From Mobula hypostoma (taxonomy: Eukaryota): 64,000 nucleotides of DNA. The number at the start of each line of letters is the position of its first letter. The first letter of the stretch is position 1. The stretch lies in contig NC_086108.1 in assembly GCF_963921235.1 (NCBI RefSeq), forward strand, positions 59,212,001 to 59,276,000. Reading direction: 5' to 3'. Shown piece after piece: positions 9,141 through 60,291 of the stretch. A program made the position numbers and the translations under genes. The notes beneath the pieces were generated by a model, which saw nothing but the letters and a program-made list of their open reading frames with translations, had not been told where the DNA came from and did not search any database.

Positions 9141-9333
9141 ATATTAGTGAAGTAAATTTAATGAACTGAATTATTGAATTTATTAAATATTACATCAGTC
9201 CCACAAGGAGAGTATGTAAAAATCCTTGTGTTATTACTCCAATGCAATGTACAAACATGTGAATTTATAAGTTTCACACATCAAAGTTGCTGGTGAACGC
9301 AGCAGGCCAGGCAGCATCTCCAGGAAGAGGTGC

Positions 9334-9369
9334 AGTCAATGTTTCAGGCCGAGACCCTTCGTCAGGACT
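9334..9369 (-). ncRNA. Minimal type I hammerhead ribozyme of PLE (decayed cleavage site)
   Basis: Minus strand AGTC-CTGACGA-AGG GTCTCGG CCT-GAAAC-ATT-GACT. GTC has become ATT, consistent with CpG decay. Confidence 0.7.
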
Positions 9370-9663
9370 AACTGAAGGAAGAGTGAGTAAGAGATTTGAA
9401 AGTTGGAGGGGGAGGGGGAGATCCAAAATGATAGGAGAAGACAGGAGGGGGAGGGATGGAGCCAAGAGCTGGACAGGTGATTGGCAAAAGGGATACGAGA
9501 GGATCATGGGACAGGAGGTCCGGGAAGAAAGACAAGTGGGGGGGGAACCCAGAGGTTGGGCAAGGGGTGTATTCAGAGGGACAGAGGGAGAAAAAGGAGA
9601 GTGAGAGAAAGAATGTGTGTATAAAAATAAATAACAGATGGGGTACGAGGGGCAGGTGGGGCA

Positions 9664-10142
9664 TTAGCGGAAATTAGAGAAGTCGATGTTCATGCCATCA
9701 GGTTGGAGGCTACCCAGATGGAATATAAGGTGTTGTTCCTCCAACCTGAGTGTGGCTTCATCTTTACAGTAGAGGAGGCCGTGGATAGACATGTCAGAAT
9801 GGGAATGGGATGTGGAATTAAAATGTGTGGCCACTGAGAGATCCTGCTTTCTCTGGCGGACAGAGCGTAGATGTTCAGCAAAGCGGTCTCCCAGTCTGCG
9901 TTGGGTCTCACCAATATATAAAAGGCCACATCGGAAGCACCGCATGCAGTATATCACCCCAGCCGACTCACAGGTGAAGTGTCGCCTCACCTGGAAGGAC
10001 TGTTTGGGGCCCTGAATGGTGGTAAGGGAGGAAGTGTAAGGGCATGTGTAGCACTTGTTCCGCTTACACGGATAAGTGCCAGGAGAGAGATCAGTGGGGA
10101 GGGATGGGGGAGATGAATGGACAAGGGAGTCGCGTAGGGAGC
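9664..10142 (-). pseudogene. PLE Cys-rich linker plus GIY-YIG endonuclease domain (left arm)
   Basis: CKRNKCYTC linker, VIYCMRCFRCGLLYIGETQRRLGDRFAEH, VATHFN..H, RLEEQHLIFHLGSLQPDGMN. Confidence 0.9.
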
Positions 10143-10670
10143 CCACAACTAAGCACATCTTTCCCTCCCCCCCCCGCTTTCCGCAGCGATTGCTCCCTAC
10201 GCGACTCCCTTGTCCATTCGTCCCCCCAATCCCTCCCCACTGATCTCCCTCCTGGCACTTATCCGTGTAAGCGGAACAAGTGCTACACATGCCCTTACAC
10301 TTCCTCCCTTACCACCATTCAGGGCCCCAAACAGTCCTTCCAGGTGAGGCGACACTTCACCTGTGAGTCGGCTGGGGTGATATACTGCATGCGGTGCTCC
10401 CGATGTGGCCTTTTATATATTGGCGAGACCCGACGCAGACTGGGAGACCACTTTGCTGAACACCTACGCTCTGTCCGCCAGAGAAAGCAGGATCTTCCAG
10501 TGGCCACACATTTTAATTCCACATCCCATTCCCATTCTGACATGTCTATCCACCGCCTCCTCTACTGTAAAGATGAAGTCACACTCAGGTTGGAGGAACA
10601 ACACCTTATATTCCTTCTGGGTAGTCTCCAACCTGATGGCATGAACATTGACTTCTCTAACTTCCGCTAA
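10143..10670 (+). pseudogene. PLE Cys-rich linker plus GIY-YIG endonuclease domain (right arm)
   Basis: Same motifs as the left arm (VIYCMRCSRCGLLYIGETRRRLGDHFAEH), stop at 10670. Confidence 0.9.
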
Positions 10671-10967
10671 TGCCCCACCTCCCCCTCGTACCCCGTCTGT
10701 TACTTATTTTTATACACACATTCTTTCTCTCACTCTCCTTTTTCTCCCTCTGTCCCTCTGAATACACCCCTTGCCCAACCCCTGGGTTCCCCCCGCCCCA
10801 CTTGTCTTTCTTCCCGGACCTCCTGTCCCATGATCCTCTCGTATCCCTTTTGCCAATCACCTGTCCAGCTCTTGGCTCCATCCCTCCCCCTCCTGTCTTC
10901 TCCTATCATTTTGGATCTCCCCCTCCCCCTCCCACTTTCAAATCTCTTACTAACTCTTCCTTCAGTT

Positions 10968-11003
10968 AGTCCTGACGAAGGGTCTCGGCCTAAAACGTCG
11001 ACT
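10968..11003 (+). ncRNA. Minimal type I hammerhead ribozyme of PLE (GAAA changed to AAAA)
   Basis: AGTC-CTGACGA-AGG GTCTCGG CCT-AAAAC-GTC-GACT. Confidence 0.7.
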
Positions 11004-12204
11004 GCACCTCTTCCTACAGATGCTGCCTGGCCTGCTGCGTTCACCAGCGACTTTGATGTGTGTTGCTTGAATTTCCAGCATCTGCAGAATTCCTGTTGTT
11101 TGCGAATTTATAAGTTTAATGGATTGTGGAAAGAAGCTGTCCTGTAGCTTGTTGGCCCTTGCTTTAATGCTGCGGTACTGTTTGCCAGATGGAAGCAGCT
11201 ATGAACAGGGTGACTGGTGTCCCCGATGATCTTCCAGGCCTTCTTTACACATCTGCTGCTGTAAATGTCCTCAATGGAGGGAAGTTCACATCCATATATG
11301 AGCTGGACTGTCAGTACCACTCAGTGCAGTGCCCAACGATTAAGGTTCCCATCTCAGGCGATGATACAAGAAGTCAGGATGCTCTCAATAGTGCCCCCGT
11401 AAAAGGTCTTGAGGATTTTGGGGCTCATGCCAAACTTCTTCAGTCACCTGAGGTGGAAGAGATGCTGTTGTGTTTTTTTTGCCACATGGCTGGTGTGTAC
11501 AGTCCAGATGTAATCTTAGGTGATGTGTATAGCAAGGAACAGGGCAAACCTGTTTCAGTTTCTTCTGTAATCCATGATTAGCTCTTCTGTTTTTTGGACA
11601 TTGAGGGAGAGGTTGTGATCTTGACACCACTGTGTCGGGTTATTAACCTCTCCTTTGTAGGCTGTCTCGTCACTGCTAGAAATAAGGCTGATCAATATCA
11701 TGTCATCTGCAAATTTGATCAGCAGATTGGAGCTGTGTGTGGCAGCAGGGGTGTGGGTGTAAAGGGAATAGAGGAGGGGACTCAGGACACAACCCTGGGG
11801 GGGGGCACCTGTGTTGAGGGTCAGGGGGCAGAGGTAAGGTCCTTGCCACCTGTCAGTGATCTGATAGGAAGTCTAGGATCCAGCTTTACAAAGTGGGGTG
11901 CAGGCTGAGGTCTCTGAGCTTCCTGTTAAGTCTGGAGGATTTTATCTTTGTTTCCCTGGTGCCAGGTCAAGAACATCACTGATTGGCTGTACAAAGTTCT
12001 GAAGGACAGATGAATCACCTCAGGTCATGATTCATATCTATCTAATGACAATGAAATAGAAAGGGAGATTTTAATAAATATTAGGGAAAAAAGCAGATTA
12101 AAAAGCAGGCCCTGAAAGGTGATAATCTTTGGAATTCTCCATTTGTGCCATGTGCCACAAGTGCAAAAAGTAGATAAAAATAGATAAATGGGTGGTACAG
12201 AGGG

Positions 12205-12540: not shown

Positions 12541-12595
12541 TACATAAATGCAAAACACATATTTAACAGACTTTGTGGGCTAGTGTACAATTGGT

Positions 12596-16424: not shown

Positions 16425-17595
16425 TCCTATCTCCTTTACCATAGCGTTGGAGAGGGATAGGGACAGACAAATCAGTAAAGCATTTAATTCGAGTAAGGGG
16501 AAATATGAAGCTATCAGGCAGGAACTTGGAAGCATAAATTGGGAACAGATGTTCTCAGAGAAATGTATGGCAGAAATGTGGCAAATGTTCAGGGGATATT
16601 TGCATGGTATTCTGCATATGTACATTCCAATGAGACAGGGAAAGAATGGAAGGGTGCAGGAACCATGGTGTACAAAGGCTGTTGAAAATCTAGTCAAGAA
16701 GAAAAGAAGAGCTTACGAAATGTTCAAAAAACTAGGTAATGATAGAGATCTAGAAGATTATAAGGCTAGCAGGAAGGAGCTTAAGAATGAAATTAGGAGA
16801 GCCAGAAGGGGCCATGAGAAGGCCTTGGCGAGCAGAATTAAAGAAAACCCCAAGGCATTCTATAAGTACGCGAAGAGCAAGAGGGTAAGATATGAGAGAA
16901 TAGGACCAATCAAGTGAGACAGTGAAAAAGTGTGAATAGAAACAGAGGAGACAGAAGGGTTATTTAATGAATACTTTGCTTCAGTATTCACTACGGAAAA
17001 GGATCTTGGTGATTGTAGGGATAACTTACAGTGGATTGAAAAGCTTGAGCATATAGAGATTAAGGAAGAGGATGTGCTGGAGCTTTTGGAAAGCATCAAG
17101 TTGGATAAGTCTCCGGGAACAGATGAGATGTACTGCAAGCTACTGTGGGAGGTGAGGGAGGCGATTGCTGAGCCTCTGGCAATGATCTGTGCATCATCAA
17201 TGGGGATGGGAGAAGTTCCAGAGGATTGGAGGGTTGCAGATGTTGTTCCCTTATTTATGAAAGGGAGTAGAGATAGCCCAGGAAATTATAGACCAGTGAG
17301 TCTTACTTCAGTGGTTGATAAGTTGATGGGAAAAATCCTGAGAGGCACGACTCATGAACATTTGGAGAGGCATAATATGATTAGGAATAGTCAGCATGGC
17401 TTTGTTAAAGGCAGGTCATGCTTGATTGAATTTTTTGAGGATGTGACTAAACATGTTGATGAAGGTAGAGCAGTAGATATAGTGTATATGGATTTTAGCA
17501 AGGCATTTGACAAGGTACCCCATGCAAGGCTTATTGAGAATGTAAGGAGGCATGGGATCCAAGGAGACCTTACTTTGTAGATGCAGAATTAGCTT
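16425..17595 (+). mobile_element. CR1 LINE ORF2 internal fragment
   Basis: IKENPKAFYKY, DKSPGTDEMY, WRVADVVPLFMKG..PGNYRPVSLTSVV, SQHGFVKGRSC, YMDFSKAFDKVPH. Confidence 0.92.
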
Positions 17596-18780
17596 CATTT
17601 ATTAACCTACTGATTCCTACTGTAATCTTAACTCTACCTCTTCCCACCCTACCTCTCGTAAAACTGATATTCCCTTTTCTCAGTTCCTTTGCCTCCGCTG
17701 CACCTGTTCCCAGGATGCACTTCCTTCTTCAAAGGAAAGGGTTTTCCTCACTCCACTATTGTTGCTGCCTTCACCCACACCTCCTCTCCTCCTTTTCCCG
17801 AACATCCGTGCTCACCCATCTACCCGTTCCTCTTATCCTCACCTACCACCCCATGAGCTTCCACATCCAACATATCATCTTCCACAACTTACTCCAGCTA
17901 CAAAGGAATCCTACCACTAAATATAACTTTACCTCCCCATTTCTCCACATTCTGCAGGAATGGATCCCTCTGCAATTCTGTTGTACATGCGTCCCTCCCC
18001 ACTAAGCTCCCACCCGGCACCTATCCCTGCAAGCAGCCTAAATGCTACTCTTGCTCATCCAACTCCTCCCTCACCTCCATTCAGGGCCCCAAATAATCCT
18101 TCCAGGTGAGGCAACACTTTATCTACAAGTCTGCTAGGTTCATCTACTGTGTTCAATGCACCCGATGCGGCCGCCTCTGCATTGGTGATACCCACTTCCT
18201 CAAGCACCTCTGCTCCATCCACCAAAAGTGGAACTTCCCGATGGCCTAACATTTTAATTCCATTTCCCATTATTCTTCTGACTTGGTCCGTGGCCCCCTC
18301 TCGTGCCAAAGTGAGGTCACCCTCGGAGTAGAGGAGCACACCTTATACTCCATCTGGGTACCTTCCAACCTGATGGCATTAATATCAATTTCTCCTCTAG
18401 TAAAAATAATTTTTCCCTCTTTGTCTTTTCCCCACTCTAGTCTCTTACCTCTTCCCACCTGCCTATCACTTCCACCTGGGTCCCCTCCTCCTTCCCTTTG
18501 TCCTATGGTCCCTTCTCCTCCCCTATCAGATTTCTTTTTCTGCAGCCCTTCACCTTCCCCTCCCATCTGGCTTCACCTATCACCTTCTCGCTAACCACCT
18601 TCTCGCTAACCTCCTTCCCCTTCCCCCCACCTTTTCATTCTGGCGTCTTCCCCCTTCCTTTTCCTTCCTGAAAGAGGGCCTTGGCCCAGAATGTCAACTG
18701 TTTATTTCCTGGTGGGTTCCTCCAGTATTTTTTGTATGTTGCTTTGGATTTCCAGCATCTGCAGAATTCCTCATGTGTAA
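17596..18780 (+). mobile_element. Older Penelope-like element 3' part (RT thumb, GIY-YIG, pyrimidine-rich UTR, decayed hammerhead)
   Basis: Colinear with 58640-59900 (IPFSQFLCLRCTCSQD, ttccaggtgaggcaacactt, cctgaaagagggccttggcccagaatgtcaact, ttccagcatctgcagaattcctcatgt). Confidence 0.85.
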
Positions 18781-21554: not shown

Positions 21555-23040
21555 GGACCAGGCAACAGTCAATGGCAGATGCAATCTCAGTGGCTCTCCA
21601 CATGGCTTTAGACCACCTGGACAACTCAAACACCTACATCATGATGCTGTTCATCAACTATAGCTCAGCACTTAACACCATCATTCCTACAATCCTGTTT
21701 GAGAAATTGTAGAACCTGGGCCTCTGTACCTCCTTCTGCAATTGGATCCTCAACATCCTAACCGGAAAACCACAATCTGTGCGGATTGGTGATAACATCT
21801 CCTCCTCGTTGATGATCAACACTGGTGTACCTCAAGGGTGTGTGCTTAGCCCACAGCTCTGCTCCCTCTATACACATGATTTGTGGCAAGGCACAGCTCA
21901 AATACCACCTATAAATTTGCTGACAATACAACCATTGTTGGTAGATTCTCAGGTGGTGACAAGGGGCCGTACAGCAATCAGATACGTCATCTAGTGGAGT
22001 GGTGCAGCAGCAACAACCTGACACTCAACGTCAATAAGACGAAAGAGCTGATTGTGGACTTCAGGAAGGGTATGATGAAGGAACACATACCAATCCTCAT
22101 AGAGGGATCAGAAGTGGAGAAAGTGAGCAGTTTCAAGTTCCTGGGTATCAAGATCTCTGAGGATCAAACCTGGTCCCAACATAACGATGCAGTTATAAAG
22201 AAGGCAAGACAGTGGCTATACTTTATTAGGACTTTGAAGAGATTTGGTATGTCAACAAATACAATCAAAAACTTCTATAGTTGTCCCGTGGAGAGCATTC
22301 TGAGAGTCTGCATCACTGTCTGGTATGGAGGGGCAACTTCACAGGACCGAAAGAAGCTGTGGAATGTTGTAAATCTAGTCAGCTCCATCTTGGGCATTAG
22401 CCTACGAAGTAGCCAGGACATCTTCAGGGAGCAGTGTCTCAGAATGGCAGTGTCCAATATTGACCTCCAGCACCCAGGGCATGCCGTTTTCTCCTTGTTA
22501 TTATCATCGAGGAGGTACAGAAGCCTGAAAGCACACACTCAATGATTCAGGAAAGCTTCTTCCCCTCTGCCATCTGATTCCTAAATGGACAGTGAATTGC
22601 TAGACACTACCTCACTTAATATATAGTATCACACATCAAATTTGCTGGTGAACGCAGCAGGCCAGGCAGCATCTCTAGGAAGAGGTACAGTTGACGTTTC
22701 AGGCCAAGACCTAACGAAGGGTCTCGGCCTGAAACGTCGACTGCGCCTCTTCCTAGAGATGCTGCCTGGCCTGCTGCGTTCACCAGCAACTTTGATGTGT
22801 GTTGTTTGAATTTCCAGCATCTGCAGAATTCCTCATGTTTGCGTTAATATATAGTATTTCCGTTTTTGCATGTTTTTTAAAATCTATTCAATATACATAT
22901 ATTGTAATTGATACTTGTATATTATTATTATTATTTTCTTTTTTTCTCTCTGATAGTTTATGTATTGTGTTGAACTGCTGCTGCTAAGTTAACAAATTTC
23001 ACGTCACATGCTGGTGATAATAAATCTGATTCTGATTCTA
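21555..23040 (+). mobile_element. Rex1/Babar LINE 3' 1.5 kb with a mini-PLE inserted in its UTR
   Basis: [75 protein letters not shown], and a (GATTCT)n tail at ~23025-23040. Confidence 0.9.
22630..22843. mobile_element. Palindromic mini-Penelope element (214 bp), 14-bp TSD
   Basis: Two inverted PLE termini. TSD TTAATATATAGTAT at 22616-22629 and 22844-22857. Confidence 0.92.
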
Positions 23041-24484: not shown

Positions 24485-27400
24485 ATTTGCAGGGGGATGG
24501 GAACCAGATTACCAGAGCTGACAGTGTGGCTGGGGTGAAAATAAATGATGTTAAATGTTCAAGCAAATCCGCTGATAGAAAGGTTGTGAGTGGTGGTAAA
24601 ATTCTTCTGAGGTGTATATATTTCAATGCTAGGAGTATTGCGGGGAAGGCGGATGCGTTGAGGGCGTGGATTGACATGTGGAATTATGACGTTATAGCAA
24701 TTAGTGAAACTTGGCTACAGGAGGGGCAGGACTGGCAGCTTAATATTCCAGGGTTCCGATGTTTCAGATGTGATCGAGGCAGAGGAATGAAAGGTGGGGG
24801 AGTAGCATTGCTTGTTAGGGAAAATATTACAGCAGTGCTCAGGCAGGACAGATTAGAGGGCTTGTCTACTGAGTCCTTATGGGTGGAGCTGAGAAACAGG
24901 AAAGGTATGGCCACATTAGTGGGATTGTATTACAGACCACCCAATAGTCAACAAGACTTGGAAGAGCAAATCTGCAGAGAGATAGCAGGCAACTGCAGGA
25001 AACATAAAGTTGTGGTGGTAGGGGATTTTAATTATCCATACATTGATTGGGACTCCCATACTGTTAGGGGTCTAGATGGTTTAGAGTTTGTAAAATGTGT
25101 TCAGGAAAGTTTTCTAAATCAATATACAGAGGGACCAACTAGTGGGGATGCAATATTGGATCTCCTGTTAGGAAACGAGTTAGGACAAGTGACGGAAGTC
25201 TGTGTAGGGGAGCACTTTGGTTCCAGTGATCATAACACCATTAGTTTCAATTTGATCATGGACAAGGATAGATCTGGTCCTAGAGTTGAGGTTCTGAACT
25301 GGAAGAAGGCCAAATTTGAAGAAATGAGAAAGGATCTAAAAAGCGTGGATTGGGACAGGTTGTTCTCTGGCAAAGATGTGATTGGTAGGTGGGAAGCCTT
25401 CAAAGGGGAAATTTTGAGAGTGCAGAGTTTGTATGTTCCTGTCAGGATTAAAGGCAAATTGAATAGGAATAAGGAACCTTGGTTCTCAAGGGAAATTGCA
25501 ACTCTGATAAAGAAGAAGAGGGAATTGTATGAAATGTATAGGGAACAGGGAGTAAATCAAGTGCTTGAGGAGTATAAGAAGTGCAAGAAAATACTTAAGA
25601 AAGAAATCAGGAGGGCTAAAAGAAGAACAACAGGAATTCTGCAGATGCTGGAAATTCAAGCAACACACATCAAAGTTGCTGGTGAACGCAGCAGGCCAGG
25701 CAGCATCTATAGGAAGAGGTGCAGTCGACGTTTCAGGCCGAGACCCTTCGTCCTGAAACGTCGACTGCACCTCTTCCTATAGATGCTGCCTGGCCTGCTG
25801 CGTTCACCAGCAACTTTGATGGGCTAAAAGAAGACATGAGGTTGCCTTGGCAGTCAAAGTGAAGGATAATCCAAAGAGCTTTTACAGGTATATTAAGAGC
25901 AAAAGGATTGTAAGGGATAAAATTGGTCCTCTTGAAGATCAGAGTGGTCGGCTATGTGCAGAACCAAAGGAAATAGGGGAGATCTTAAATAGGTTTTTTG
26001 CGTCTGTATTTAATAAGGAAACTGGCATGAAGTCTATGGAATTGAGGGAATCAAGTAGTGAGATCATGGAAACTGTACAGATTGAAAAGAAGGAGGTGCT
26101 TGCCGTCTTGAGGAAAATTAAAGTGGATAAATCCCCAGGGCCTGACAGAGTGTTCCCTCGGACCTTGAAGGAGACTAGTGTTGAAATTGCGGGGGCCCTG
26201 GCAGAAATACTTAAAATGTCGCTGTCTAGGGGTGAGGTGCTGGAGGACTGGAGAGTGGCTCATGTTGTTCCATTGTTTAAAAAAGGATCGAAAAGTAATC
26301 CGGGAATTTATAGGCCGGTGAGTTTAACGTTGGTAGTAGGTAAATTATTGGAGGGAGTACTAAGAGACAGAATCTACAAGCATTTGGATAGACAGGGACT
26401 TATTAGGGAGAGTCAACATGGCTTTGTGCGTGGTAGGTCATGTTTGACCAATCTATTGGAGTTTTTTGAGGAGGTTACCAGGAAAGTGGATGAAGGGAAG
26501 GCAGTGGATATTGTCTACATGGATTTCAGTAAGGCCTTTGACAAGGTCCCGCATGGGAGGTTAGTTAGGAAAATTCAGTCACTAGGTATACATGGAGAGG
26601 TGGTAAATTGGATTAGACATTGGCTCAATGGAAGAAGCCAAAGCGTGGTGGTAGAGAATTGCTTCTCTGAGTGGAGGCCTGTGACTAGTGGTGTGCCACA
26701 GGGATCAGTGCTGGGTCCATTGTTATTTGTCATCTATATCAATGATCTGGATGATAATGTGGTAAATTGGATCAGCAAATTTGCTGATGATACAAAGATT
26801 GGAGGTGTAGTAGACAGTGAGGAAAGTTTTCAGAGCCTGCAGAGGGACTTGGACCAGCTGGAAAAATGGGCTGAAAAATGGCAGATGGAGTTTAATACAG
26901 ACAAGTGTGAGGTATTGCACGTTGGAAGGACAAACCAAGGTAGAACACACAGGGTTAATGGTAAGGCACTGAGGAGTGCAGTGGAACAGAGGGATCTGGG
27001 AATACAGATACAAAATTCCCAAAAAGTGGCGTCACAAGTAGATAGGGTAGTAAAGAGAGCTTTTGGTACATTGGCCATTATTAATCAAAGTATTGAGTAT
27101 AAGAGCTGGAATGTTATGATGAGGTTGTATAAGGCATTGGTGAGGCCGAATCTGGAGTATTGTGTTCAGTTTTGGTCACCAAATTACAGGAAGGATATAA
27201 ATAAGGTTGAAAGAGTGCAGAGAAGGTTTACAAGGATGTTGCCGGGACTTGAGAAACTCAGTTACAGAGAAAGGTTGAATAGGTTAGGACTTTATTCCCT
27301 GGAGTGTAGAAGAATGAGGGGAGATTTGATAGAGGTATATAAAATTATGATGGGTATAGATAGAGTGAATGCAAGCAGGCTTTTTCCACTGAGGCAAGGG

Positions 27401-27622
27401 GAGAAAAAAACCAGAGGACATGGGTTAAGGGTGAGGGGGGAAAAGTTTAAAGGGAACATTAGGGGGGGCTTCTTCACACAGAGAGTGGTGGGAGTATGGA
27501 ATGAGCTGCCAGATGAGGTGGTAAATGCGGGTTCTTTATTAACATTTAAGAATAAATTGGGCAGATACATGGATGGGAGGTGTATGGAGGGATATGGTCC
27601 ATGTGCATGTCAGTGGGACTAG
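24475..27622 (+). pseudogene. CR1 ORF2 (APE endonuclease plus RT), interrupted only by the mini-PLE at 25627-25820
   Basis: YFNARS, ISETWL, YYRPP, GDFN, SDHN, then RT motifs PQGSVLGP and KFADD. Joining 25626 to 25835 restores the frame (IRRAKRR|HEVALAVKVK). Confidence 0.95.
25627..25820. mobile_element. Palindromic mini-Penelope element (194 bp), 14-bp TSD
   Basis: 69-bp perfect inverted arms (25669-25737 / 25752-25820) with a 14-nt loop. TSD GGGCTAAAAGAAGA at 25613-25626 and 25821-25834. Confidence 0.95.
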
Positions 27623-28416
27623 GCAGAAAATGGTTCGGCACAGCCAAGAAGGGCCAAAAGGCCTGTTTCTGTGCTGTAGTTTCCATGGTTTCTATGGTTT
27701 CTATGTTGGCACGTAACCCTATAGCCTTCCAATTTAGAAATTAAAAGCCATCTGAAAATACAAAATGAGAGTAAAGGGAAAGAATAATGAAGAATACATA
27801 TTTTTAAAATAAAATAGTACTGCATAGTTTTCCTAGTCACTATTACAAACAAAAAAAACAGTTTAACCACTTAATGCTGTGCAGAACAGAGGGATAATCT
27901 TTATTGCATTTTATTAGAACTCAGCAAAACATAATATTTTATCTGTAATTTTCAAAGAAAACAAGAAGATTCCTAAATATAAATCAGATGGTAGCACAAT
28001 TATCAAAGTAATTACTAGGTTCATCATATTTTAGAATGAACATTAATTCTTGCATTATATTTTGTTTAAAACAAAATAAATATGCAATAACTTAATACTG
28101 GATCAGATCTTTTTGGAAGAGTTTTCTAAAAGGTGCCCCTTTAGAAATTATTTTTCAGACTTCAGTTCAGAAATACTTAGAGCTGTGTGCTGGAAGTTAG
28201 GTACAGGAACAGTCTCTTCAGTGAATGAAAAGACCAATGTTAACTTAACTAATGGGACTTAACAGCTGAGGAATAAAAATAGGAATGGCAAGAAATAATT
28301 TCCAAAAAGGAAATGGGGAAAAAAGGTAAAGTGATAGCTTTTATTGCATTTTAGGTTTGTCCCATATCAACTTGTCAACTAACTAAAGGGAAGAGACTTG
28401 AGAATCTCAACTCAGT

Positions 28417-28601
28417 CAACACACACAAAATGCTGGAGGAACTCAGCAGACCAGGCAGCATCTATGGAAAAAAGTACAGTCAACGTTTTGGGCCGAAAAT
28501 CTTCGGAAGGGCTTTTGAGTTCCTCCAGTGTTGCTGAGTTCCTCCAGCATTTTGTGTACGTTGCTTGGATTTCCAGCATCTGTAGATTTTCTCTTGTTTT
28601 T
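28417..28601. mobile_element. Palindromic mini-Penelope element, second subfamily, 14-15-bp TSD
   Basis: acaaaatgctggaggaactcagca / tgctgagttcctccagcattttgt inverted. TSD GAATCTCAACTCAGT at 28402-28416 and 28602-28616. Confidence 0.88.
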
Positions 28602-36770: not shown

Positions 36771-37419
36771 TGTGGACCCTATAATAATTTAAAAAAATAT
36801 TCTTCTAACATTACCATAAGAGTGAATGAGCAGTTAATTACTTGAAATGCTCCAAGGACAAGTTTCATTTGACATAGTTCTGATCTTTAGCTGCCTAATT
36901 ATTAATGATACAATATTTGTATAGAAAGCTTCATTATGAACTGGTAGTTTGCAGAAAGACTTCTTTTACATCTATTAGCGACATGTTAATATTGGCTGGA
37001 TGTGATCTGACAGTCTATTGAAAAGGTGGATTCTAAAGGCAGAGCTATACAAGGGTAGAAATCTAAATTAATATAGAGTGTGATTGTTAAATTTCCTGTC
37101 GAAGAGAAAATTCAAATTGATGAAATGGAAGTGGTAAAGAACAAAGATAAATTGTTTAGAAAAGCTTCAAAGCAGAATTGATTATGCAGTTTGGATGGAA
37201 TTGCTGCATTTATAGTACACAATATTCCACAACTGGGCAACATTTCAAAAATGAGGGCTAGATTGGAATTTACTGCAGAGCTCCTTGCAGATTGCTTTGT
37301 GCTGGTGAGTACATTGGGGTCACTAGTGAATGTAATTTGTAAAAATGATACTTATTCTATTTAGTAGACTATATATTGTAAAAAAATGAGTTTATTGATT
37401 ATACTCGCTTATAAATAGA

Positions 37420-38590
37420 AACAGAAAATGCTGGGGGTACTCAACATGTCTGGTAGTGTCTGTGGAGAGAGAGGAAAATAGAGTTAATATTTCAGGACAA
37501 TGTCACTTTATCGCAATTAGAAAAGTGAGAAAAAGTTGCAGAGAAGAGAAGGATAGGAGGAACAAAGGGGATGCCTGCAAAAAGGAAGAGAACAAGTTTG
37601 TCCAGGTATGATGCTCTCAGAACAAAACAACATACTGGAACTGTAAGATGTAGAATGAAGCACTTGCTGAAATATGAAACAAAAGAGAATAAAACCAAAA
37701 GACCATGTGATAAAGGAGCAGAAGTAGGCCATTCGGCCCATCGAGTCTGCTCTGCCTTTCAATCATGGGCTGATCCAATTCTTCCAGTCATCCCCACTCC
37801 CCTGCCTTCACCCCATACCCTTTGATGCCCTGACTATTGAATATTGGAGATACCCAACAGATTACAGAATCTGTGAAGTAGAAAGCTCAGCTATTCTTAC
37901 AATGGAACTCTCTAGTTCTAATATAAACAGCAAAGACTGGTTATGAGACCATAAGATATAGGAGCAGAATTAGGCCTTTTGGCCTATCAAGTCTGCTCTG
38001 CCATTTCATCATTGCTGATCCAATTTTGGATCATGGAACCCCAGTCTCATTCCTTCTCCCTGTATCCCTTCATGTCCTGACCTATCAAGAATCTGCCTTA
38101 AATATACATAAAGACTTGGCCTCCATAGCTGCCAGTGGCAAAGAATTCCACAGATTCACCAGTCTCTGGCTAAAGAAATTCCTGCTCATCTATGTTATCT
38201 GAAATTGTTAAATTCAATATTAAGGTTTAAGTGTTGCAACTTGCCAACATACTGTATATCATGAGGTACTGTTTCCCAAACTTGCACTGGGCTTCAATGC
38301 AACAGTGTAGGAGGCCAGCCACTGAGAGGCCAGTGTGGGAATGTTATCAGGACGACCTTTGCAGACTTTTACACAGAGAGTGGTGGGTACTGGGAAAACG
38401 TTGCCAGGGCTGGTGGTAGAGGCAGATACATTAGATAAATTTAAGAAATTCTTAGATAGGCACATGGATGAAAGAAAAATGGAAAGATATACGGGAGGAA
38501 AGGGTTAGGTTGATCTTGGAATATGTTAAAGGGTTGGCGCAACATAATGAACCAAAGGGCCTGTACTGTGTTGTATGTTCAATGTTCAGA
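37420..38590. mobile_element. Cluster: old PLE 3' part (-) interrupted by CR1 3' tails at ~37700-37830 (-), ~37945-38190 (-) and ~38360-38590 (+)
   Basis: PLE terminus at 37420-37510 and GIY-YIG remnant at 38200-38345. CR1 tails include gaccataagatataggagcagaattaggcc and FTQRVVGTGKTLPGLVVEADT. Confidence 0.65.
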
Positions 38591-38903
38591 CTGAATGGGG
38601 TTGCTCTGCATAACAGTCATTCAACCTACAATGGATTTCTTCAGTCTCAGGGAGGTCACAATCTGAGCACCAAATGCTGTAGCTTGGCAGAAGAGCAAAT
38701 GAATTGCTGCGTCACCTGGTAGGACTGCCTGGATGCCTGCCTGGTATGAAGGTGCAAAGAAAACGAAAAAATAAATGAACTCCCACAGTTGCACAGTAAA
38801 GTGCAGTGAGAAGGGGAGTGGTTTGTGGAAATGGATGATAAAACCATAAAAATGAAAAGCAAAATAGTCCTTTCAGAAAGGGAAGATGGGGGAAGATAAT
38901 TCT

Positions 38904-39125
38904 AGTGAATGCAGCAGGCCAGGCAGCATCTATAGGAAGAGGTACAGTCGACGTTTCGGGCCGAGACCCTTCGTCAAGACTAACTGAAAGAAGAGATAGT
39001 AAGAGATCTCGGCCCGAAACGTCAACTGTACCTCTTCCTATAGATGCTGCCTGGCTTGCTGCGTTCACCAGCATTTTTTGTGTGTGTTACTTGAATTTCC
39101 AGCATCTGCAGATTTCCTCGTGTTT
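38904..39125. mobile_element. Palindromic mini-Penelope element (222 bp), 14-bp TSD with one mismatch
   Basis: Inverted PLE termini. GGGAAGATAATTCT at 38890-38903 and GGGAAGATAAGTCT at 39126-39139. A whole hammerhead (core C changed to T) lies at 38946-38981 on the minus strand. Confidence 0.9.
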
Positions 39126-39819
39126 GGGAAGATAAGTCTGCTGGTGGAATCTTTTTGAATCTTTGTGTTAGCTTTTCAGCATTCTAGATCTCACCATCCC
39201 AAAATGTTAAATTTCTCCCCTTCACTCATCCATCTTTTAAGTAAATGGAGAAACACTGGGCCATCTGGACAATTTAGATTTTCATCCTATCACTGACATT
39301 TCCTTTGTGCTTTCCACCCCTACATTTTCTCTGTAATTCAAAACATACATTACTTGTTTTCTCACTTTTCCAGTTTTGATAAATGTCATTGATCTTGAAC
39401 ATCAACCCTATCTTTCCATCAGGTGATGCCTGACCTCCTGTGTACTTTCAGGATTTTCTATTTTTATTTCAGATTTCCAGTATCTGCAATATATTTTACT
39501 ATCACAATACCAAGCCTGTAAAGGGCATGGCTTTCAAGATCTTTCAAGACAAGTCGCTTCATTTTTGAAGTCCTTTCTGATGTTGTGTTAGTGGAAACAA
39601 GATATTTTGTGAATTGAAGATGTTAGAGGCAAATGCAGAAAATGCTTATGCAATCCTGGAAGGCAAATAGGAATTAGAGTATTTAAATCAGGTCCAGATT
39701 TGGTCTTAAGAGTTTCAATAATTCACATATTTTGTTGCATAATTTCATAGGTAAGAGCTCTGAAACAACATGTATCAGATTCTGCATTCCTCATGTATAT
39801 AAAAGCACACTGCAGTGAT

Positions 39820-51289: not shown

Positions 51290-51698
51290 TCACTCTCTGG
51301 CAGATCTAGGGCAGAATGTCTTGTCCAGAGCAGGGGTCTTACTTGTATTCCCCTTCGCCTACACCTCAATGAGTTCTGCACCCAGCATGCTGTTAAGCTC
51401 TTTTTCTGTTGTCTCTGTCTCCTAGCTCACCTCTATGGCAGGAATTCCCCACTCTGCACTGATGACCATTTCTGACACCTCTTTGCTCTTTCTCAATCTC
51501 TCTGTCTCCATCTCCGGAGACAAACTGTTTACCAACATCTTTTATAAATCTACTGATAGCCATGGCTACCTTCACTATACCTCTTCCCACTTTATCTCCA
51601 GTAAAAAATGCTATTCCAATTTCTCAGTTCTTTTGTCTCTGCTGCGTATCCTAGGATGAGACTTTTCTTTCCAGGACATCAGTGATATCCTCCTTCTT
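51290..51698 (+). mobile_element. Penelope-like RT fragment
   Basis: TISDTSLLFLNLSVSISGDKLFTNIFYKSTDSHGYLHYTSSH is homologous to 58560-58690. Confidence 0.75.
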
Positions 51699-52375
51699 CA
51701 TAGAACCATAGAACCATAGAAACTACAGCACAGAAACAGGCCCTTTGGCCCTTCTTGGCTGTGCCGAACCATTTTCTGCCTAGTCCCACTGACCTGCACA
51801 CGGACCATATCCCTCCATACACCTCCCATCCATGTACCTGTCCAATTTATTCTTAAATGTTACAAAAGAACCCGCATTTACCACCTCATCTGGCAGCTCA
51901 TTCCATACTCCCACCACTCTCTGTGTGAAGAAGCCCCCCACAATGTTCCCTTTAAACTTTTCCCCCCTCACCCTTAACCCATATCCTCTGGTTTTTTTCT
52001 CCCCTTGCCTCAATGGAAAAAGCCTGCTTGCATTCACTCTATCTATACCCATCATAATCTTATATACCTCTATCAAATCTCCCCTCATTCTTCTACGCTC
52101 CAGGGAATAAAGTCCTAACCTATTCAACCTTTCTCTGTAACTGAGTTTCTCAAGTCCTGGCAACATCCTTGTAAACCTTCTCTGCACTCTTTCAACCTTA
52201 TTTATATCCTTCCTGTAATTTGGTGACCAAAACTGAACACAATACTCCAGATTCGGCCTCACCAATGCCTTATACAACCTCATCATAACATTCCAGCTCT
52301 TATAACATTCCAGCTCTTATACTCAATACTTCAATTAATAAAGGCCAATGTACCAAAAGCTCTCTTTACGACCCT
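51699..52375 (-). mobile_element. CR1 family A 3' end, near-identical to 27040-27705
   Basis: ORF 51780-52286 matches the C-terminus of 25847-27622, with a (CATAGAAC)n tail and a 17-bp internal duplication near 52285-52320. Confidence 0.95.
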
Positions 52376-54310: not shown

Positions 54311-55018
54311 ATGTTTATCGGATGTGAATGTTACTGACAAAGGCAACTTTTATAGTTCATTGCTAACTACTCTGACATGGAGTGGCTTACAGATATGAGT
54401 TCAGTTGAAAGTCAACCACATTTCTGGAGTTCAGCTAAAAGCCAGTCTGCTTTTGTGTAGTGCTTTTAGTTCCTATGCCAACAATTCCTTTCCTTCCTGC
54501 TGACTTCCTTCGGCGGATTCTTTGTTGCTCCAGATTCTAGCATCTATAGACTCTGGGGTGGAAATGAATTATTGACATTTTGGGTCAAAGCACTATCTCC
54601 GGATTTTAAGTAGGCATTTTAAATAGATCTTTGATTTTTTTTTGCAGAAAATTTAAGAGAAATGTATATACTTCTTAGTTTGATTCCATTCCTTTCTCCT
54701 ATTCTTGCAGCCTGCAAGTTTACTTCCCCAAAGTGCTCATTGAACTTATTTTTAAATTGTTTCTGTCTTTGCCACTCACCTGGGCGATGAGTCCCATGTC
54801 ATTACCTCTCACATTATGTAAAAGTAAAGATACCCTTCCTCAGCTACTCTGCATTAGCTATCCTTCATGATCTCAGACCTCTCCAAGTGTCAGTTTTTTT
54901 TGTTACTGATTCTGAAACATTACCTTCCATGGTTACCAGGAATGCTCTCACCACTTCTTCAACAAGGGGCAGTGCAATTCTCTGCCACCTCTCCAGTCAC
55001 CAGGGATGACTCCAAGAT

Positions 55019-55242
55019 GAGAAACATGAGAAAGTCTGCAGATGCTGGAAATCCAAAGCAACACACACAAAATACTGAAGTAACTCAGCAGGTCAGGCAG
55101 CATCTATGGAAAAGAGTAAACATTTGACATTTCGGGCCAAGAACTTCAGTCCTGAAGAAGGTTGTTTGCCCAAAGCATCACCTATTTACTCCTTTTCATA
55201 GATGCTGCCTGATTTACTGAGTTCCTCCAGCATTTTGTGTAC
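55019..55242. mobile_element. Palindromic mini-Penelope element, older
   Basis: Inverted PLE termini around a decayed hammerhead (agtcctgaagaaggttgtttgcccaaagc). Imperfect 11-bp TSD GA(C/T)TCCAAGAT at 55008-55018 and 55243-55253. Confidence 0.75.
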
Positions 55243-55677
55243 GATTCCAAGATTTTAGGAAGCATATCCCCAATACTCTCAGCTATCTGAGACTCATGTC
55301 AAGCAGAACAAAAAAAGAATTAATTCTTTAGCCAGAAGTGACTGATTTGAGGAAGAATCCATAGATTTTATTTTCTGATTTCAAGCTTTACAAGTGCTCC
55401 TACAAAGTTTCCCTAACTTCTGCTGAATAAAACTTGTCGTTAATCCTCCACGTTATCTCAGTTTCACTTACCCCCTATGTTTTGTAGCTCCCTTCTCTGT
55501 ACCCAAAATAACAGTGCAAAAGACAAAGCTTTTTAATAGTCATACTCTTTGCAAGAACTAATTTTCAATATATGTGACATTATCAGGATAAGTGACACCA
55601 AATCTCTTTATACCATCCAGTGCTACCTTTCACGGGGTTATCTGTTGACAGCACAGACCCTTAAGGATCTACTTAAA

Positions 55678-55965
55678 GAAATCAGAATCAGAAACAGGTT
55701 TATTAGCACAGATATACAGTCGGACCATAAAATTTGTTGTTTGCAGCAACAGAGCAGTGCAAAACATAAAAATACTATGTTACAATAAGAAATTTATTTA
55801 AAAATAAATGAAATAAGTAGTGCAAAAAGAGAGCAAATCGTGAAGTAGTGTTCATGGGTTGTTTCGTTGTCTGTTCAGAAATCTGATGGTGGAGGGGAAG
55901 AAGCTGTTCCTAAAATGTTGAGTGTGTATTTTCAGGCTCCTGTACCTCCACCCTGATGGGAATAT
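55678..55965 (-). mobile_element. Rex1/Babar 3' end
   Basis: PSGWRYRSLKIHTQHFRNSFFPSTIRFLN with an (ATCAGA)n tail at 55681. Confidence 0.8.
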
Positions 55966-56477
55966 CAGAATGTCCACATCTACTGCTTGTAAAGTGATTA
56001 TTGCCTTAAATATTTGTGCATCAACATTTTCAAGGTGCAACAAGGGGACAAATATAATATCACTCTTGATTGTGTCTTTCTTATCTTTACTACTAACAGG
56101 AAATTGGCAGGGCTTTTCAAATTTCCCTGTGGAAAAAAACTAGCATAATTTGCTGTGATGTCCTGTGGTACTGATGGTTCTGGCCACAGGCACCCTTAAG
56201 TTAAGAGTGGGAAACGACCTGAGAACATAAAATAAGTACAAGTCAAGGAAACAATTTCTGCAGTAATTCCTTGCTGCCTCCTAGTCTCCTAATGAATGGC
56301 CCAGTCAGCATTGCAACTTCCTATTTCTTTTAAAATCATATTTTTCTGTTACCAAAAGTAAGAGATATAAATTTGATGCAAACAACAGGAATTCTGCAGA
56401 TGCTGGAAATTCAAGCAACACACATCAAAGTTGCTGGTGAACGCAGCGGGCCAGGCAGCATCTGTAGGAAGAGGTGC

Positions 56478-56513
56478 AGTCGACGTTTCAGGCTGAGACC
56501 CTTCGTCAGGACT
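56478..56513 (-). ncRNA. Minimal type I hammerhead ribozyme of PLE, core intact
   Basis: Minus strand AGTC-CTGACGA-AGG GTCTCAG CCT-GAAAC-GTC-GACT. Confidence 0.82.
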
Positions 56514-57615
56514 AACTGAAGGAAGAGTGAGTAAGGGATTTGAAAGTTGGAGGGGGAGGGGGAGATCCAAAATGATAGGAGAAGACAGGAGGGGGAGGGA
56601 TGGAGCCAAGAGCTGGACAGGTGATAGGCAAAAGGGATACGAGAGGATCATGGGACAGGAGGTCCGGGAAGAAAGACAAGGAGGGGGGCAGGGACCCAGA
56701 GGATGGGCAAGAGGTATATTCAGAGGGACAGAGGGAGAAAAAGGAGAGTGAGAGAAAGAATGTGTGCATAAAAATAAGTAACAGATGGGGTACGAGGGGG
56801 AGGTGGGGCATTAGCGGAAGTTAGAGAAGTCGATGTTCATGCCATCAGGTTGGAGGCTACCCAGACGGAATATAAGATGTGTTTCGAGTGTGGCTTCATC
56901 TTTACAGTAGAGGAGGCCGTGGATAAACATGTCAGAATGGGAATGGGATGTGGAATTAAAATGTGTGGCCACTGGGAGATCCTGCTTTCTCTGGCGGACA
57001 GAGCGTAGATGTTCAGCAAAACGGACTCCCAGTCTGTGTCAGGTCTCGCCAATATATAAAAGGCCACATCGGGAGCACCGGACACAGTATATCACCCCAG
57101 CCGACTCACAGGTGAAGTGTTGCCTCACCTGGAAGGATTGTTTGGGGCCCTGAATGGTGGTAAGGGAGGAAGTGTAAGGGCATGTGTAGCACTTGTTCCG
57201 CTTACATGGATAAGTGCCAGGAGGGAGATCAGTGTGGAGGGATGGGGGGGGGACGAATGGACAAGGGAGTTGCGTAGGGAGCGATCCCTGCGGAATGCGG
57301 GGGGGGGAGGGAAAGATGTGCTTAGTGGTGGGATCCCGTTGGAGGTGGCGGAAGTTACGGAGAATAATATGTTGGACCTGGAGGCTGGTGGGGTGGTAGG
57401 TGAGGACCAGGGGAACCCTATTCCTAGTGGGGTGGCGGGAGGATGGAATGAGAGCAGATGTACGTGAAATGGGGGAGATGCGTTTAAGAGCAGAGTTGAT
57501 AGTGGGGGAAGGGAAGTCCCTTTCTTTAAACAAGGAAGACATCTCCCTCATCCTAGAATGAAAAGCCTCATCCTGAGAGCAGATGCGGCGGAGACAGAGG
57601 AATTGCGAGAAGGGA

Positions 57616-59521
57616 CTGCCGACGGGACATCAACCGTCTCGACTTCACCGCACCTTGTCCCCATTCCAACCTCACTCCTTCGGAACGCTCTGCTCTCCAC
57701 TCCCTCCGCACTAATCCTAACCTTATTATTAAACCCGTCGATAAGGGGGGTGCTGTTGTAGTCTGGCGTACTGACCTCTACCTTGCCGAGGCACAGCGAC
57801 AACTCGCGGATACCTCCTCTTATTTACCCCTCGATCGTGACCCCACTAAGGAGCACCAGGCCATTGTCTCCCACACCATCACCGACTTTATCCGCTCAGG
57901 GGATCTCCCATCCACTGCTACCAACCTTATAGTTCCCACACCCCGCACTTCCCGTTTCTACCTCCTACCCAAGATCCACAAATCTGTCTGTCCTGGCCGA
58001 CCTATTGTCTCACCTTGCTCCTGCCCCACCGAACTCATTTCTGCATACCTCAACACGGTTTTATCACCCCTTGTTCAATCCCTTCCAACCTATGTTTGTG
58101 ACACTTCTCACGCTCTTAAACTTTTCGATGATTTTAAGTTCCCTGGCCCCCACCGCTTTATTTTCACCATGGGTGTCCAGTCCTTATATACTTCCATCCC
58201 CCATCAGGAAAGTCTCAAAGCTCTACGCTTCTTTTTGGATTCCAGACCTAATCAGTTCCCCTCTACCACCACTCTGCTCCGTCTAGCAGAATTAGTCCTT
58301 ATTCTTAATAATTTCTCCTTTGGCTCCTCCCACTTCCTCCAAACTAAAGGTGTAGCTATGGGCACCCGTATGGGTGCTAGCTATGCCTGCCTTTTTGTTG
58401 GGTTTGTGGAACAATCTATGTTCCGTGCCTATTCTGGTATCTGTCCCCCACTTTTCCTTCGCTACATCGACGACTGCATTGGCGCTGCTTCCTGCGCGCA
58501 TGCAGAACTCGTTGACTTTATTAACTTTGCCTCCAACTTTCACCCTGCCCTCAAGTTTACCTGGTCCATTTCCGACACCTCCCTCCCCTTTCTAGATCTT
58601 TCTGTCTCTGTCTCTGGAGACAGCTTATCCACTGATGTCTACTATAAGCCTATTGACGCTCACAGCTATCTGGACTATTCCTCTGTCTCTTGCAAAAACG
58701 CCATCCCCTTCTCGCAATTCCTCCGTCTCCGCCGCATCTGCTCTCAGGATGAGGCTTTTCATTCTAGGACGAGGGAGATGTCTTCCTTTTTTAAAGAAAG
58801 GGGCTTCCCTTCCTCCACTATCAACTCTGCTCTTAAACGCATCTCCCCCATTTCACGTACATCTGCTCTCACTCCATCCTCCCGCCGCCCCACTAGGAAT
58901 AGGGTTCCCTGGTCCTCACCTACCACCCCACCAGCCTCCGGGTCCAACATATTATTCTCCGTAACTTCCGCCACCTCCAACGGGATCCCACCACTAAGCA
59001 CATCTTTCCCTCCCCCCCTCTCTCAGCATTCCGCAGGGATCGCTCCCTACGCAACTCCCTTGTCCATTCGTCCCCCCCCATCCCTCCCCACTGATCTCCC
59101 TCCTGGCACTTATCCATGTAAGCGGAACAAGTGCTACACATGCCCTTACACTTCCTCCCTTACCACCATTCAGGGCCCCAAACAATCCTTCCAGGTGAGG
59201 CAACACTTCACCTGTGAGTCGGCTGGGGTGATATACTGCGTCCGGTGCTCCCGATGTGGCCTTTTATATATTGGCGAGACCCGACGCAGACTGGGAGACC
59301 GCTTTGCTGAACATCTACGCTCTGTCCGCCAGAGAAAGCAGGATCACCCAGTAGCCACACATTTTAATTCCACATCCCATTCCCATTCTGACATGTCTAT
59401 CCACGGCCTCCTCTACTGTAAAGATGAAGCCACACTCAGGTTGGAGGAACAACACCTTATATTCCATCTGGGTAGCCTCCAACCTGATGGCATGAACATC
59501 GACTTCTCTAACTTCCGCTAA
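57616..59521 (+). pseudogene. PLE ORF: reverse transcriptase, Cys linker and GIY-YIG endonuclease, 5'-truncated with small indels
   Basis: IIKP.DKGG, FYLLPKIHK..PGRPIVS, FTMGVQSLYTSIPH, QTKGVAMGT, FLRYIDDC, PFLDL, CKRNKCYTC, VIYCVRCSRCGLLYIGET. Confidence 0.95.
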
Positions 59522-59812
59522 GGCCCCACCTCCCCCTTGTACCCCATCTGTTACTTATTTTTATGCACACATTCTTTCTCTCACTCTCCTTTTTCTCCCT
59601 CTGTCCCTCTGAATATACCTCTTGCCCATCCTCTGGGTCCCCCCCCTTGTCTTTCTTCCCTGACCTCCTGTCCCATGATCCTCTCGTATCCTTTTTGCCT
59701 ATCACCTGTCCAGCTCTTGGCTCCATCCCTCCCCCTCCTGTCTTCTCCTATCATTTTGGATCTCCCCCTCCCCCTCCAACTTTCAAATCCCTTACTCACT
59801 CTTCCTTCAGTT

Positions 59813-59848
59813 AGTCCTGACGAAGGTTCTCGGCTTGAAACGTCGACT
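59813..59848 (+). ncRNA. Minimal type I hammerhead ribozyme of PLE, core intact, stem II weakened
   Basis: AGTC-CTGACGA-AGG TTCTCGG CTT-GAAAC-GTC-GACT. Confidence 0.78.
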
Positions 59849-60291
59849 GCACCTCTTCCTACAGATGCTGCCTGGCCTGCTGCGTTCACCAGCAACTTTG
59901 ATAAATTTGATGGATGTATTTTTTGTAAGAGTAAAAGGTGGTTAATTTAATCTTACAGTGTCCCTTGACATTGCAAGATCAAATCAATATGATCCAACAT
60001 CATAGCTTATTTATCCAGGACGGAACTGCTGTATCCTGTAGCACAGTATCCTGCATTTTCTCAGGATTTTGTCTTCACTGTTCTATCCATTTCATATGTT
60101 GATCGATCCTCGTGTGACGAAGAAATTCTTGACAATCAATCCTACCTTTCCAGTGCCTTGCTTGAACCTGCATCACTTGGTATTTGGCTTGAAATCATGC
60201 TGTGGATCATTTGTAATTATGTATCTTAGTTTTCAAATATCTGGCATCTCCAAGCCTCCCAGACGTCTACATCTGCGCCAAGTGCATCGAG

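What the first reader, a model, noticed from the sequence alone, without database searches (positions are those of the whole stretch)
9261..59912. Seven Penelope-derived insertions share one architecture: inverted 3' ends, ~14-bp TSD and a tail on one arm only
Seen: 9275-11103, 22630-22843, 25627-25820, 28417-28601, 38904-39125, 55019-55242 and 56379-59900 each consist of two outward-pointing PLE 3' ends. TSDs are 14, 14, 14, 14-15, 14 (1 mismatch), 11 (1 mismatch) and 12 bp. In every case one arm runs to the full terminus (..CAGCATCTGCAGA..TGTTT) and the other stops roughly 35-60 nt short. Known: PLEs can carry inverted pseudo-LTRs and a short tail extension. Inference: inversion is the normal integration product here, as if both nicked target strands prime reverse transcription near the RNA 3' end at two different start points, and the GIY-YIG nuclease makes a near-fixed 14-nt stagger.
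Basis: partly seen in the sequence, partly recalled or inferred. Interest (0 to 1): 0.76.

Follow-up and report, generated by a model that had tools for sequence, protein, structure and literature searches.

The report
Two-armed Penelope insertions, one tail each
Seven dead copies of a Penelope-like jumping gene in a ray-like fish each consist of two back-to-back ends inside one 11-15-base target duplication, a layout already in print, but together they suggest that both cut DNA strands start copying the element's RNA at two different points.

Summary
All seven insertions are two outward-facing 3' ends of a Neptune/Nematis-type Penelope-like element (PLE) within one target duplication of 11-15 bp. 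One arm carries the tail; the other stops 37-57 nt short. A census found 9 of 13 terminus-bearing copies two-armed, all 9 one-tailed (two old ones are weak); 4 look single-armed. The layout is published (PMC3846280, PMC8557442, PMC2377424), and this scan noted it before elsewhere in this genome. What the set adds: (1) the two arms of one insertion share a source (13 of 13 informative substitutions); (2) in three insertions neither arm is contained in the other, which excludes simple fold-back of one cDNA; (3) removing E3 and one duplication restores its host LINE's reading frame. With the in vitro PAc data (both strands cut and extended, two start sites; PMC11167929), the best reading is dual priming: each nicked strand primes cDNA, one at each start site. 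How the centre closes is undecided. A 'fixed 14-nt stagger' is overstated: 4 of 7 are 14. No genome-wide count was possible.

The parts
9261..9274 (+). E1 left TSD (14 bp; second copy 11104-11117)
9275..10142 (-). E1 tail-less arm (-903 to -40), includes the GIY-YIG C-terminal coding part
10137..11103 (+). E1 tail-bearing arm (-958 to +1); 6-nt overlap with the left arm at 10137-10142; tail 11063-11103
11104..11117 (+). E1 right TSD
22616..22629 (+). E2 left TSD (14 bp; second copy 22844-22857)
22630..22711 (-). E2 tail-less arm (-121 to -40)
22707..22843 (+). E2 tail-bearing arm (about -134 to +2)
25613..25626 (+). E3 left TSD (14 bp; second copy 25821-25834), inside the ORF2 of a CR1-type LINE
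25627..25752 (-). E3 tail-bearing arm (-128 to -3)
25752..25820 (+). E3 tail-less arm (-113 to -45), 0 differences from its partner over 69 nt
28402..28416 (+). E4 left TSD (15 bp; second copy 28602-28616)
28417..28513 (-). E4 tail-less arm (about -134 to -37), older subfamily
28514..28601 (+). E4 19-nt centre holding a 13-nt repeat of the arm start, then the tail-bearing arm (from -68)
38890..38903 (+). E5 left TSD (14 bp, 1 mismatch; second copy 39126-39139)
38904..39007 (-). E5 tail-less arm (-160 to -57)
39007..39125 (+). E5 tail-bearing arm (-119 to -1)
55008..55018 (+). E6 left TSD (11 bp, 1 mismatch; second copy 55243-55253)
55019..55151 (-). E6 tail-bearing arm (to about -128), older subfamily
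55148..55242 (+). E6 tail-less arm (about -134 to -41)
56367..56378 (+). E7 left TSD (12 bp; second copy 59901-59912)
   Evidence: a contig of organism F stops fitting exactly at 56378
56379..57614 (-). E7 tail-bearing arm (1236 nt)
57615..59900 (+). E7 tail-less arm (2286 nt; 57615-58705 has no counterpart in the other arm)
57644..59521 (+). 5'-truncated, damaged RT + CX4CxxC linker + GIY-YIG (CCHH) reading frame
56477..56513 (-). minimal hammerhead-like motif (CUGANGA, helix II, GAAAC-GUC), read by eye; repeated whole or in part in most arms
   Evidence: no Rfam hammerhead hit
37415..39495 (.). very old two-armed copy (arms 62% alike over 238 columns), left arm without tail, right arm with tail, E5 nested inside; no TSD found
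8210..8319 (-). single tail-bearing arm with a 9-bp, 1-mismatch flanking repeat: counter-example to 'always inverted'
17591..18779 (+). single 1.2-kb tail-bearing arm of an older subfamily, no TSD found

Best explanation
These are ordinary 5'-truncated insertions of a Neptune/Nematis-type PLE made by dual target-primed reverse transcription. (1) The GIY-YIG nuclease nicks the two target strands about 12-15 nt apart. The geometry of outward-facing 3' ends plus a direct duplication requires that this leaves 3' overhangs (inferred from the sequence). (2) Each 3' end primes a cDNA on RNA from the same source locus, one at the tail end and one 37-57 nt further in (two-strand extension and two start sites are shown in vitro for another clade; their pairing within one event is inferred here). 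(3) The centre closes head to head at 0-6 nt of inverted match. Either two long cDNAs anneal at their 3' ends, or one long cDNA folds back and its copy meets a short second cDNA; the sequence cannot tell these apart (inferred). (4) Each strand is extended on the other and the overhangs are filled in, which gives one TSD and an inverted pair with one tail, with no separately primed second strand (inferred). If only one end primes, a single-armed copy results. All copies here are dead.
For: One TSD around each of 7 of 7 pairs (null 17 of 20000). Exactly one tail in 7 of 7, and in 2 of 2 older pairs; if arms chose a start independently the chance is at most 0.5^7 = 0.008. Arms of one insertion share a source: 13 of 13 informative substitutions among four long arms group E1 left with E1 right and E7 left with E7 right; E2, E3 and E5 arms also share variants. 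The tail arm reaches further 5' in E1, E2, E3, but the tail-less arm does in E4 (by at least 47 nt), E5 (41 nt) and E7 (1091 nt); E6 is too close to call. In those three neither arm can be a copy of the other alone. Deleting E3 plus one TSD gives a gap-free CR1 frame against 3 paralogs. A contig of organism F stops fitting at the last base of the E7 left TSD and runs on for 707 unlaid letters, as an empty site would (letters not shown). In vitro PAc cuts and extends both strands and starts at two sites that bound the tail (PMC11167929).
Against: In vitro the start site did not differ between top and bottom strand, so the one-of-each pairing is not shown there, and PAc is Poseidon-type whereas this element has the Neptune/Nematis linker. 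The short end is spread over 20 nt and shows 1-2 nt matches to the target in E3, E5, E7, which would also fit trimming and repair of an unprimed end. The two arms stop within 66 nt of each other in 6 of 7, as fold-back predicts; two free cDNAs need a shared barrier to explain this. 4 of 13 terminus-bearing copies look single-armed. Shared variants could come from early conversion between arms. n is 7 in one window; the TSD lengths are 11-15, not fixed. An earlier scan note (unchecked) reports arms from two different templates, which counts against a one-RNA version.
Confidence: 0.62

Rival explanations
1. Self-priming or fold-back only (the published idea): one template folds back to give a long hairpin, and the nuclease resolves its ends so that one arm keeps the tail; there is no second target-primed cDNA.
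For: Arms share a source. Central offsets are small in 6 of 7. Short inverted matches lie at some centres (6 nt in E1; an 8-nt palindrome by eye in E5). Proposed in PMC3846280; tail by EN-mediated resolution suggested in PMC8557442.
Against: A cDNA that folds back on itself makes the second arm a subset of the first, so the tail arm must always hold the spacer; this fails in E4, E5, E7. A hairpin cut with one polarity predicts one arrangement, but both occur (3 and 3). Overlaps of 1 nt at E3 and E5 are at chance level (0 or 1 nt in 86% of random junctions).
Confidence: 0.2
2. Sequential twin priming as in L1: ordinary first-strand TPRT, then a later second nick at a variable distance whose 3' end primes on the same or a second RNA. 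The narrow TSD range is a small-sample effect and no concerted double cut exists.
For: PMC8557442 (preprint text) describes variable TSD length from a later second nick. TSDs of 8-10 bp in Adineta, 11-15 here, and 14-16 in earlier notes on this genome (unchecked).
Against: It does not by itself explain why exactly one arm carries the tail in 7 of 7. L1 twin priming (recalled) inverts a non-overlapping 5' part, whereas here both arms copy the same 3' end. It is a variant of the best reading, not its opposite.
Confidence: 0.12
3. Two independent insertions or later rearrangement: a second copy inserted at the 5' end of a first, or recombination between neighbouring copies, with conversion making the arms alike.
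For: The family is very abundant (362250 contigs of one run lie on 3.3 kb), and E5 sits inside an older PLE. PAc can nick its own pLTR.
Against: No inner TSD at any centre by eye; one outer TSD each; 13 of 13 informative sites pair the arms, while each arm has 8-15 private changes, so conversion was not ongoing; E3 removes cleanly.
Confidence: 0.04
4. A non-autonomous fold-back (MITE-like) family that moves as a finished unit.
For: Five copies are about 185-225 bp long with inverted arms.
Against: No two copies share the same centre or the same pair of ends; sizes run from 185 to 3522 bp; at least two subfamilies are involved.
Confidence: 0.02

Closest known systems
Inverted-pLTR insertions of EN+ PLEs: Pen2a_Av and relatives of Adineta vaga (PMC3846280, parts 1-4 of 5 read), Fig. 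2 text of PMC8557442 (passages), D. virilis Penelope (PMC2377424, passages)
   Same: An inverted 5'-truncated copy at the 5' end, one TSD around the whole, a 30-40 bp tail often on one end only, short overlap at the inverted junction; called typical or most frequent in these papers.
   Different: Here TSDs are 11-15 bp (8-10 in Adineta), the tail offset is 37-57 nt, none of the seven has a direct tandem pLTR, and a set of seven shows the one-tail pairing, shared arm source and non-nested arms, which those passages do not quantify.
PAc (Poseidon_Ac) of Anolis carolinensis in vitro (PMC11167929, parts 1-3 of 4 read; text search of 3 supplement files found no use of inverted, tail, TSD or duplication; figures not seen)
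   Same: Both target strands cleaved and extended; RT starts inside the RNA at two sites that bound the tail; AT-rich targets; hammerhead upstream of the start sites; uncleaved RNA used.
   Different: Poseidon clade (no linker zinc finger). No strand difference in start site was seen, and the text read does not link two-strand extension to inverted copies or TSD length.
L1 5' inversion by twin priming (recalled; my search for a source failed)
   Same: Both target strands prime cDNA; head-to-head junction at microhomology; one TSD.
   Different: In L1 the second primer lands upstream on the RNA, so the two parts hardly overlap and inversion is a minority product. Here both arms copy the same 3' end, and inversion is the majority in this window.
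Neptune and Nematis PLE clades (PMC8557442, passages)
   Same: CX2-5CxxC linker between RT and EN, CCHH in the EN, C-terminal GIY-YIG.
   Different: No tree with named references was built. The microsatellite bias reported for Neptune is not seen at these seven sites.

Membership tests
EN+ Penelope-like element | RT and C-terminal GIY-YIG in one ORF | tested here: met
   654-codon frame; Pfam GIY-YIG E 2.8e-4, 21.5 bits, just under the 22.6 cut-off, RVT_1 not hit on this damaged copy; 443 homologs, most of the 120 listed with PF00078; YIDD present
EN+ Penelope-like element | CCHH motif with two Cys between GIY and YIG | tested here: met
   C535 and H557 invariant, C538 and H573 nearly invariant in a 26-sequence alignment (definition)
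EN+ Penelope-like element | 5' truncation, TSD, inverted truncated copy, one-sided tail | tested here: met
   tail offset 37-57 nt against 30-40 in print
EN+ Penelope-like element | hammerhead motif in the terminal repeat | tested here: inconclusive
   core motif and helices I and II seen by eye and in a fold not above shuffles; no Rfam hammerhead family at E up to 1
EN+ Penelope-like element | partial tandem forming direct pLTRs | tested here: not met
   none of the seven has a direct tandem, only a 13-nt repeat in E4; copies without it are described in print, so it is not required
Neptune/Nematis clades | CX2-5CxxC zinc-finger linker between RT and EN | tested here: met
   CX4CxxC; C492, C497, C500 invariant (definition)
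Neptune/Nematis clades | RT phylogeny with named references | not tested
   no named PLE references among my hits
Neptune/Nematis clades | bias towards microsatellite targets (a tendency, not a rule) | tested here: not met
   no TSD is a microsatellite, E2 is TA-rich; TSDs 71% AT, p = 0.01 against the window
Penelope/Poseidon clade | absence of the linker zinc finger | tested here: not met
   linker present
L1-type twin-primed inversion | inverted part is an upstream, non-overlapping piece of the RNA; poly(A) at one end (recalled) | tested here: not met
   arms overlap along the 3' end in all seven, over up to 1181 nt in E7; no poly(A)
MITE or fold-back DNA transposon | fixed termini and a shared internal structure among copies | tested here: not met
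   every copy has its own centre and ends

The most novel reading that the evidence does not exclude
PLE integration is by design a two-primer reaction. One complex cuts both strands 12-15 nt apart and loads two RT sites in tandem on one RNA; their spacing of about 40-55 nt is the tail. The two antisense products then template each other, so no separate second-strand priming is needed. This would explain in one scheme the inverted pLTR, the one-sided tail and the narrow TSD, and would set PLEs apart mechanistically from LINEs. I did not find this scheme in the papers my searches returned; most subscription papers and book chapters are not searched.
Probability: 0.3. Interest if true: 0.75.

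Novelty: new member of a known kind. Interest (0 to 1): 0.46.

Why it matters
How PLEs make their tandem and inverted copies is called undefined in a 2021 paper (PMC8557442), and the 2024 in vitro paper leaves the steps after first-strand synthesis open. The layout here is not new. But this genome holds very many copies of different ages with clean TSDs, so three simple counts (tails per insertion, which arm holds the spacer, whether arms share a source) can decide between published self-priming and dual priming. Seven copies already argue against plain fold-back. If dual priming holds, it gives a route to double-stranded insertion without a separately primed second strand, and it warns annotators that short 'MITE-like' hairpins in shark and ray genomes can be single retro-insertion scars.

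Tried and rejected
No whole genome is held, so the genome-wide table could not be made. DNA pattern scans of viral and metagenome contigs found 0 matches (the pattern fitted only the older subfamily). A protein-guided metagenome scan gave 80 loci of distant relatives. Two of the 80 (L007, L078) hold both outer arms, and neither showed a convincing TSD (best 8 bp with 1 mismatch or 10 bp with 2), so they say nothing on generality. Laying contigs of 4 of 23 runs on 55400-58700 gave no per-copy census, because the joint and loose-end tables were cut. Summed depth gave tail/core ratios of 0.48, 0.44, 0.53 and 1.59; the tool states that this depth is no copy number and one of four disagrees, so I do not count it. 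Contigs of organisms A and B reach only 20 and 25 nt into E7, under the tool's 31-letter bar for bridging, and run X1 may be the source sample. A hairpin around the short start site looks plausible by eye, but the terminal RNA folds no better than shuffles (z -0.34 to 0.30) and covariation is nil. A homodimer prediction for residues 15-400 of a relative gave no verdict. I saw no nick-site motif by eye beyond AT richness. A link between arm ends and the hammerhead cut site was rejected: 13 of 14 arms run past it. Supplementary figures of PMC11167929 and supplements of the other papers were not seen and may bear on prior description of TSD lengths.
Full report
What is there. All seven elements (E1-E7 in window order) are at the stated places. 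Each is two outward-facing 3' ends of one retroelement family inside a direct repeat of 14, 14, 14, 15, 14 (1 mismatch), 11 (1 mismatch) and 12 bp. E1 could be up to 17 bp and E6 up to 13 bp if CpG decay is allowed (by eye). Such a repeat arose in 17 of 20000 random position pairs. Taking the last base of the E7 left arm as 0, tail arms end at -3 to +2 and the other arms at -37 to -57 (corrected by eye for bases shared with the TSD).

What family. [quoted passage not shown] It has 443 homologs among 7998 candidates scored; the best (90%) is labelled Mobula hypostoma, so the host is probably a ray. The CCHH motif and a CX4CxxC linker are conserved. By the definitions in PMC8557442 (passages) this is a Neptune/Nematis-type PLE, not Penelope/Poseidon. 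The copy is dead: it has Gly where the aligned homologs have Asp in the TMD motif, and a stretch before the linker is out of frame.

Census against selection bias. Two are old two-armed copies, 29843-30020 and 37415-39495; the second has arms 62% alike over 238 columns (score 104, best of 100 shuffles 53) and contains E5. Both have a tail on one arm only, but neither has a clear TSD, and erosion makes them weak cases. Four copies look single-armed: 8210-8319 (9-bp, 1-mismatch flanking repeat; null 56 of 5000), 17591-18779, 46925-47020 and about 54496-54560. I left out four other profile hits with E 0.6 or higher (one lies beside the 54496 arm) and an internal RT piece near 51450-51705 that has no terminus. 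So 9 of 13 terminus-bearing copies are two-armed and 9 of 9 have one tail. If each arm chose its start independently, 7 of 7 has a chance of at most 0.008.

One event, one source. Among the four long arms, 13 of 13 informative substitutions (9 outside CpG) group the two arms of the same insertion. Of two gap columns, one agrees and one, in a poly-C run, does not. Each arm also has 8-15 private substitutions. E2, E3 and E5 arms share variants too; one site in E1 differs between arms at a position that varies in the family. Leaving out E3 and one TSD restores the host CR1-type frame without a gap against 3 paralogs in the window.

The test that separates mechanisms. If one cDNA folded back on itself, the second arm would be a subset of the first, and the tail arm would always reach furthest 5'. 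It does in E1 (-958 against -903), E2 (-134, -121) and E3 (-128, -113). The tail-less arm reaches further in E4 (-134 against -68), E5 (-160, -119) and E7 (1091 nt more). E6 is too close to call. In those three each arm has sequence that the other lacks, so a second cDNA must have supplied the tail. Centres overlap by 6 nt in E1 and 1 nt in E3, about 5 in E2, 1 in E5 and 4 in E6; E4 has a 19-nt insert, and E7 cannot be scored. Random junctions overlap by 0 or 1 nt in 86% of cases, so only some centres exceed chance.

How it most likely works (0.62). Both strands are nicked 12-15 nt apart, leaving 3' overhangs (inferred from geometry). Each end primes cDNA on RNA of one source, one at the tail end and one about 40-55 nt further in. 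The centre closes either by annealing of two cDNA ends or by fold-back of a long cDNA onto a short second one. Mutual extension and fill-in give one TSD, two arms and one tail. For a Poseidon element, cleavage and extension of both strands and two start sites bounding the tail are shown in vitro, with no strand difference in start site (PMC11167929, parts 1-3 of 4). The pairing within one event and the closing step are my inference. Most short arms end within or just upstream of the hammerhead motif, which could be a shared barrier (inference).

Comparison with what is known. [quoted passage not shown] The Adineta paper explains it by self-priming. Searches for a dual- or twin-priming account of PLE inversions returned none among the papers I read (the two hits were seen as listings only). 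Subscription papers and the 2005-2006 reviews were not searched or read. Earlier notes of this scan describe single cases or small sets of the same layout in this genome, with TSDs of 14-16 bp, and mostly call them ordinary (unchecked).

Verdict. The elements are new members of a known kind. The interest lies in a set that discriminates between mechanisms and makes an open question countable. Interest 0.46.

Noticed in passing
window 10945-10966 (+) and about 39360-39375 (+): A branch-point-like word, a pyrimidine run and CAG lie just 5' of hammerhead helix I in both a young and a very old copy. This looks like a 3' splice site placed as the D. virilis Penelope intron end is said to be (PMC4209133 passage). 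No RNA data were laid.
   Followed up: partly
window 37415-39495: Very old two-armed PLE holding antisense GIY-YIG remnants (38198-38835), later short insertions and E5.
   Followed up: partly
window 8319 and 25752: The single-armed copy and the E3 right arm both stop at the same position (-113), at hammerhead helix II.
   Followed up: no
window 39002-39009 and 28514-28532: The E5 centre forms an 8-nt palindrome because both arms end in the same four letters; the E4 centre repeats 13 nt of its right arm. Both may record template slips during closure.
   Followed up: partly
window 11004-11062 (+) and equivalents: Most short ends fall in or beside the loop of a predicted small hairpin, recalling the stem-loop start site of PAc, but folding is not above shuffles.
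   Followed up: yes
window 60217-61110 and 24098-27622: CR1-type LINEs; the ORF at 60217 has a GDSL/SGNH esterase domain, the ORFs at 24460 and 25820 have AP endonuclease and RT domains.
   Followed up: partly
window 27098-27690 and 51712-52304: Two LINE 3' ends 97% alike in opposite orientation, 24 kb apart.
   Followed up: no
window 839-2057 (-): Broken frames that resemble gag and protease of a Gypsy-type LTR element (label recalled; Pfam gave no hit for the one frame sent).
   Followed up: no
window 21880-22545 (+): LINE RT C-terminal remnant with an ALKBH8_N hit, ending just before E2.
   Followed up: no
window about 8354-8412: A 27-bp unit repeated twice in tandem just downstream of the single-armed copy.
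   Followed up: no
L029:50-207, L024:12-268, L013:1-420, L003:7-978: Distant PLE relatives in metagenome contigs also show inverted pieces at their 5' side, L029 with a hammerhead-like motif on each arm.
   Followed up: partly
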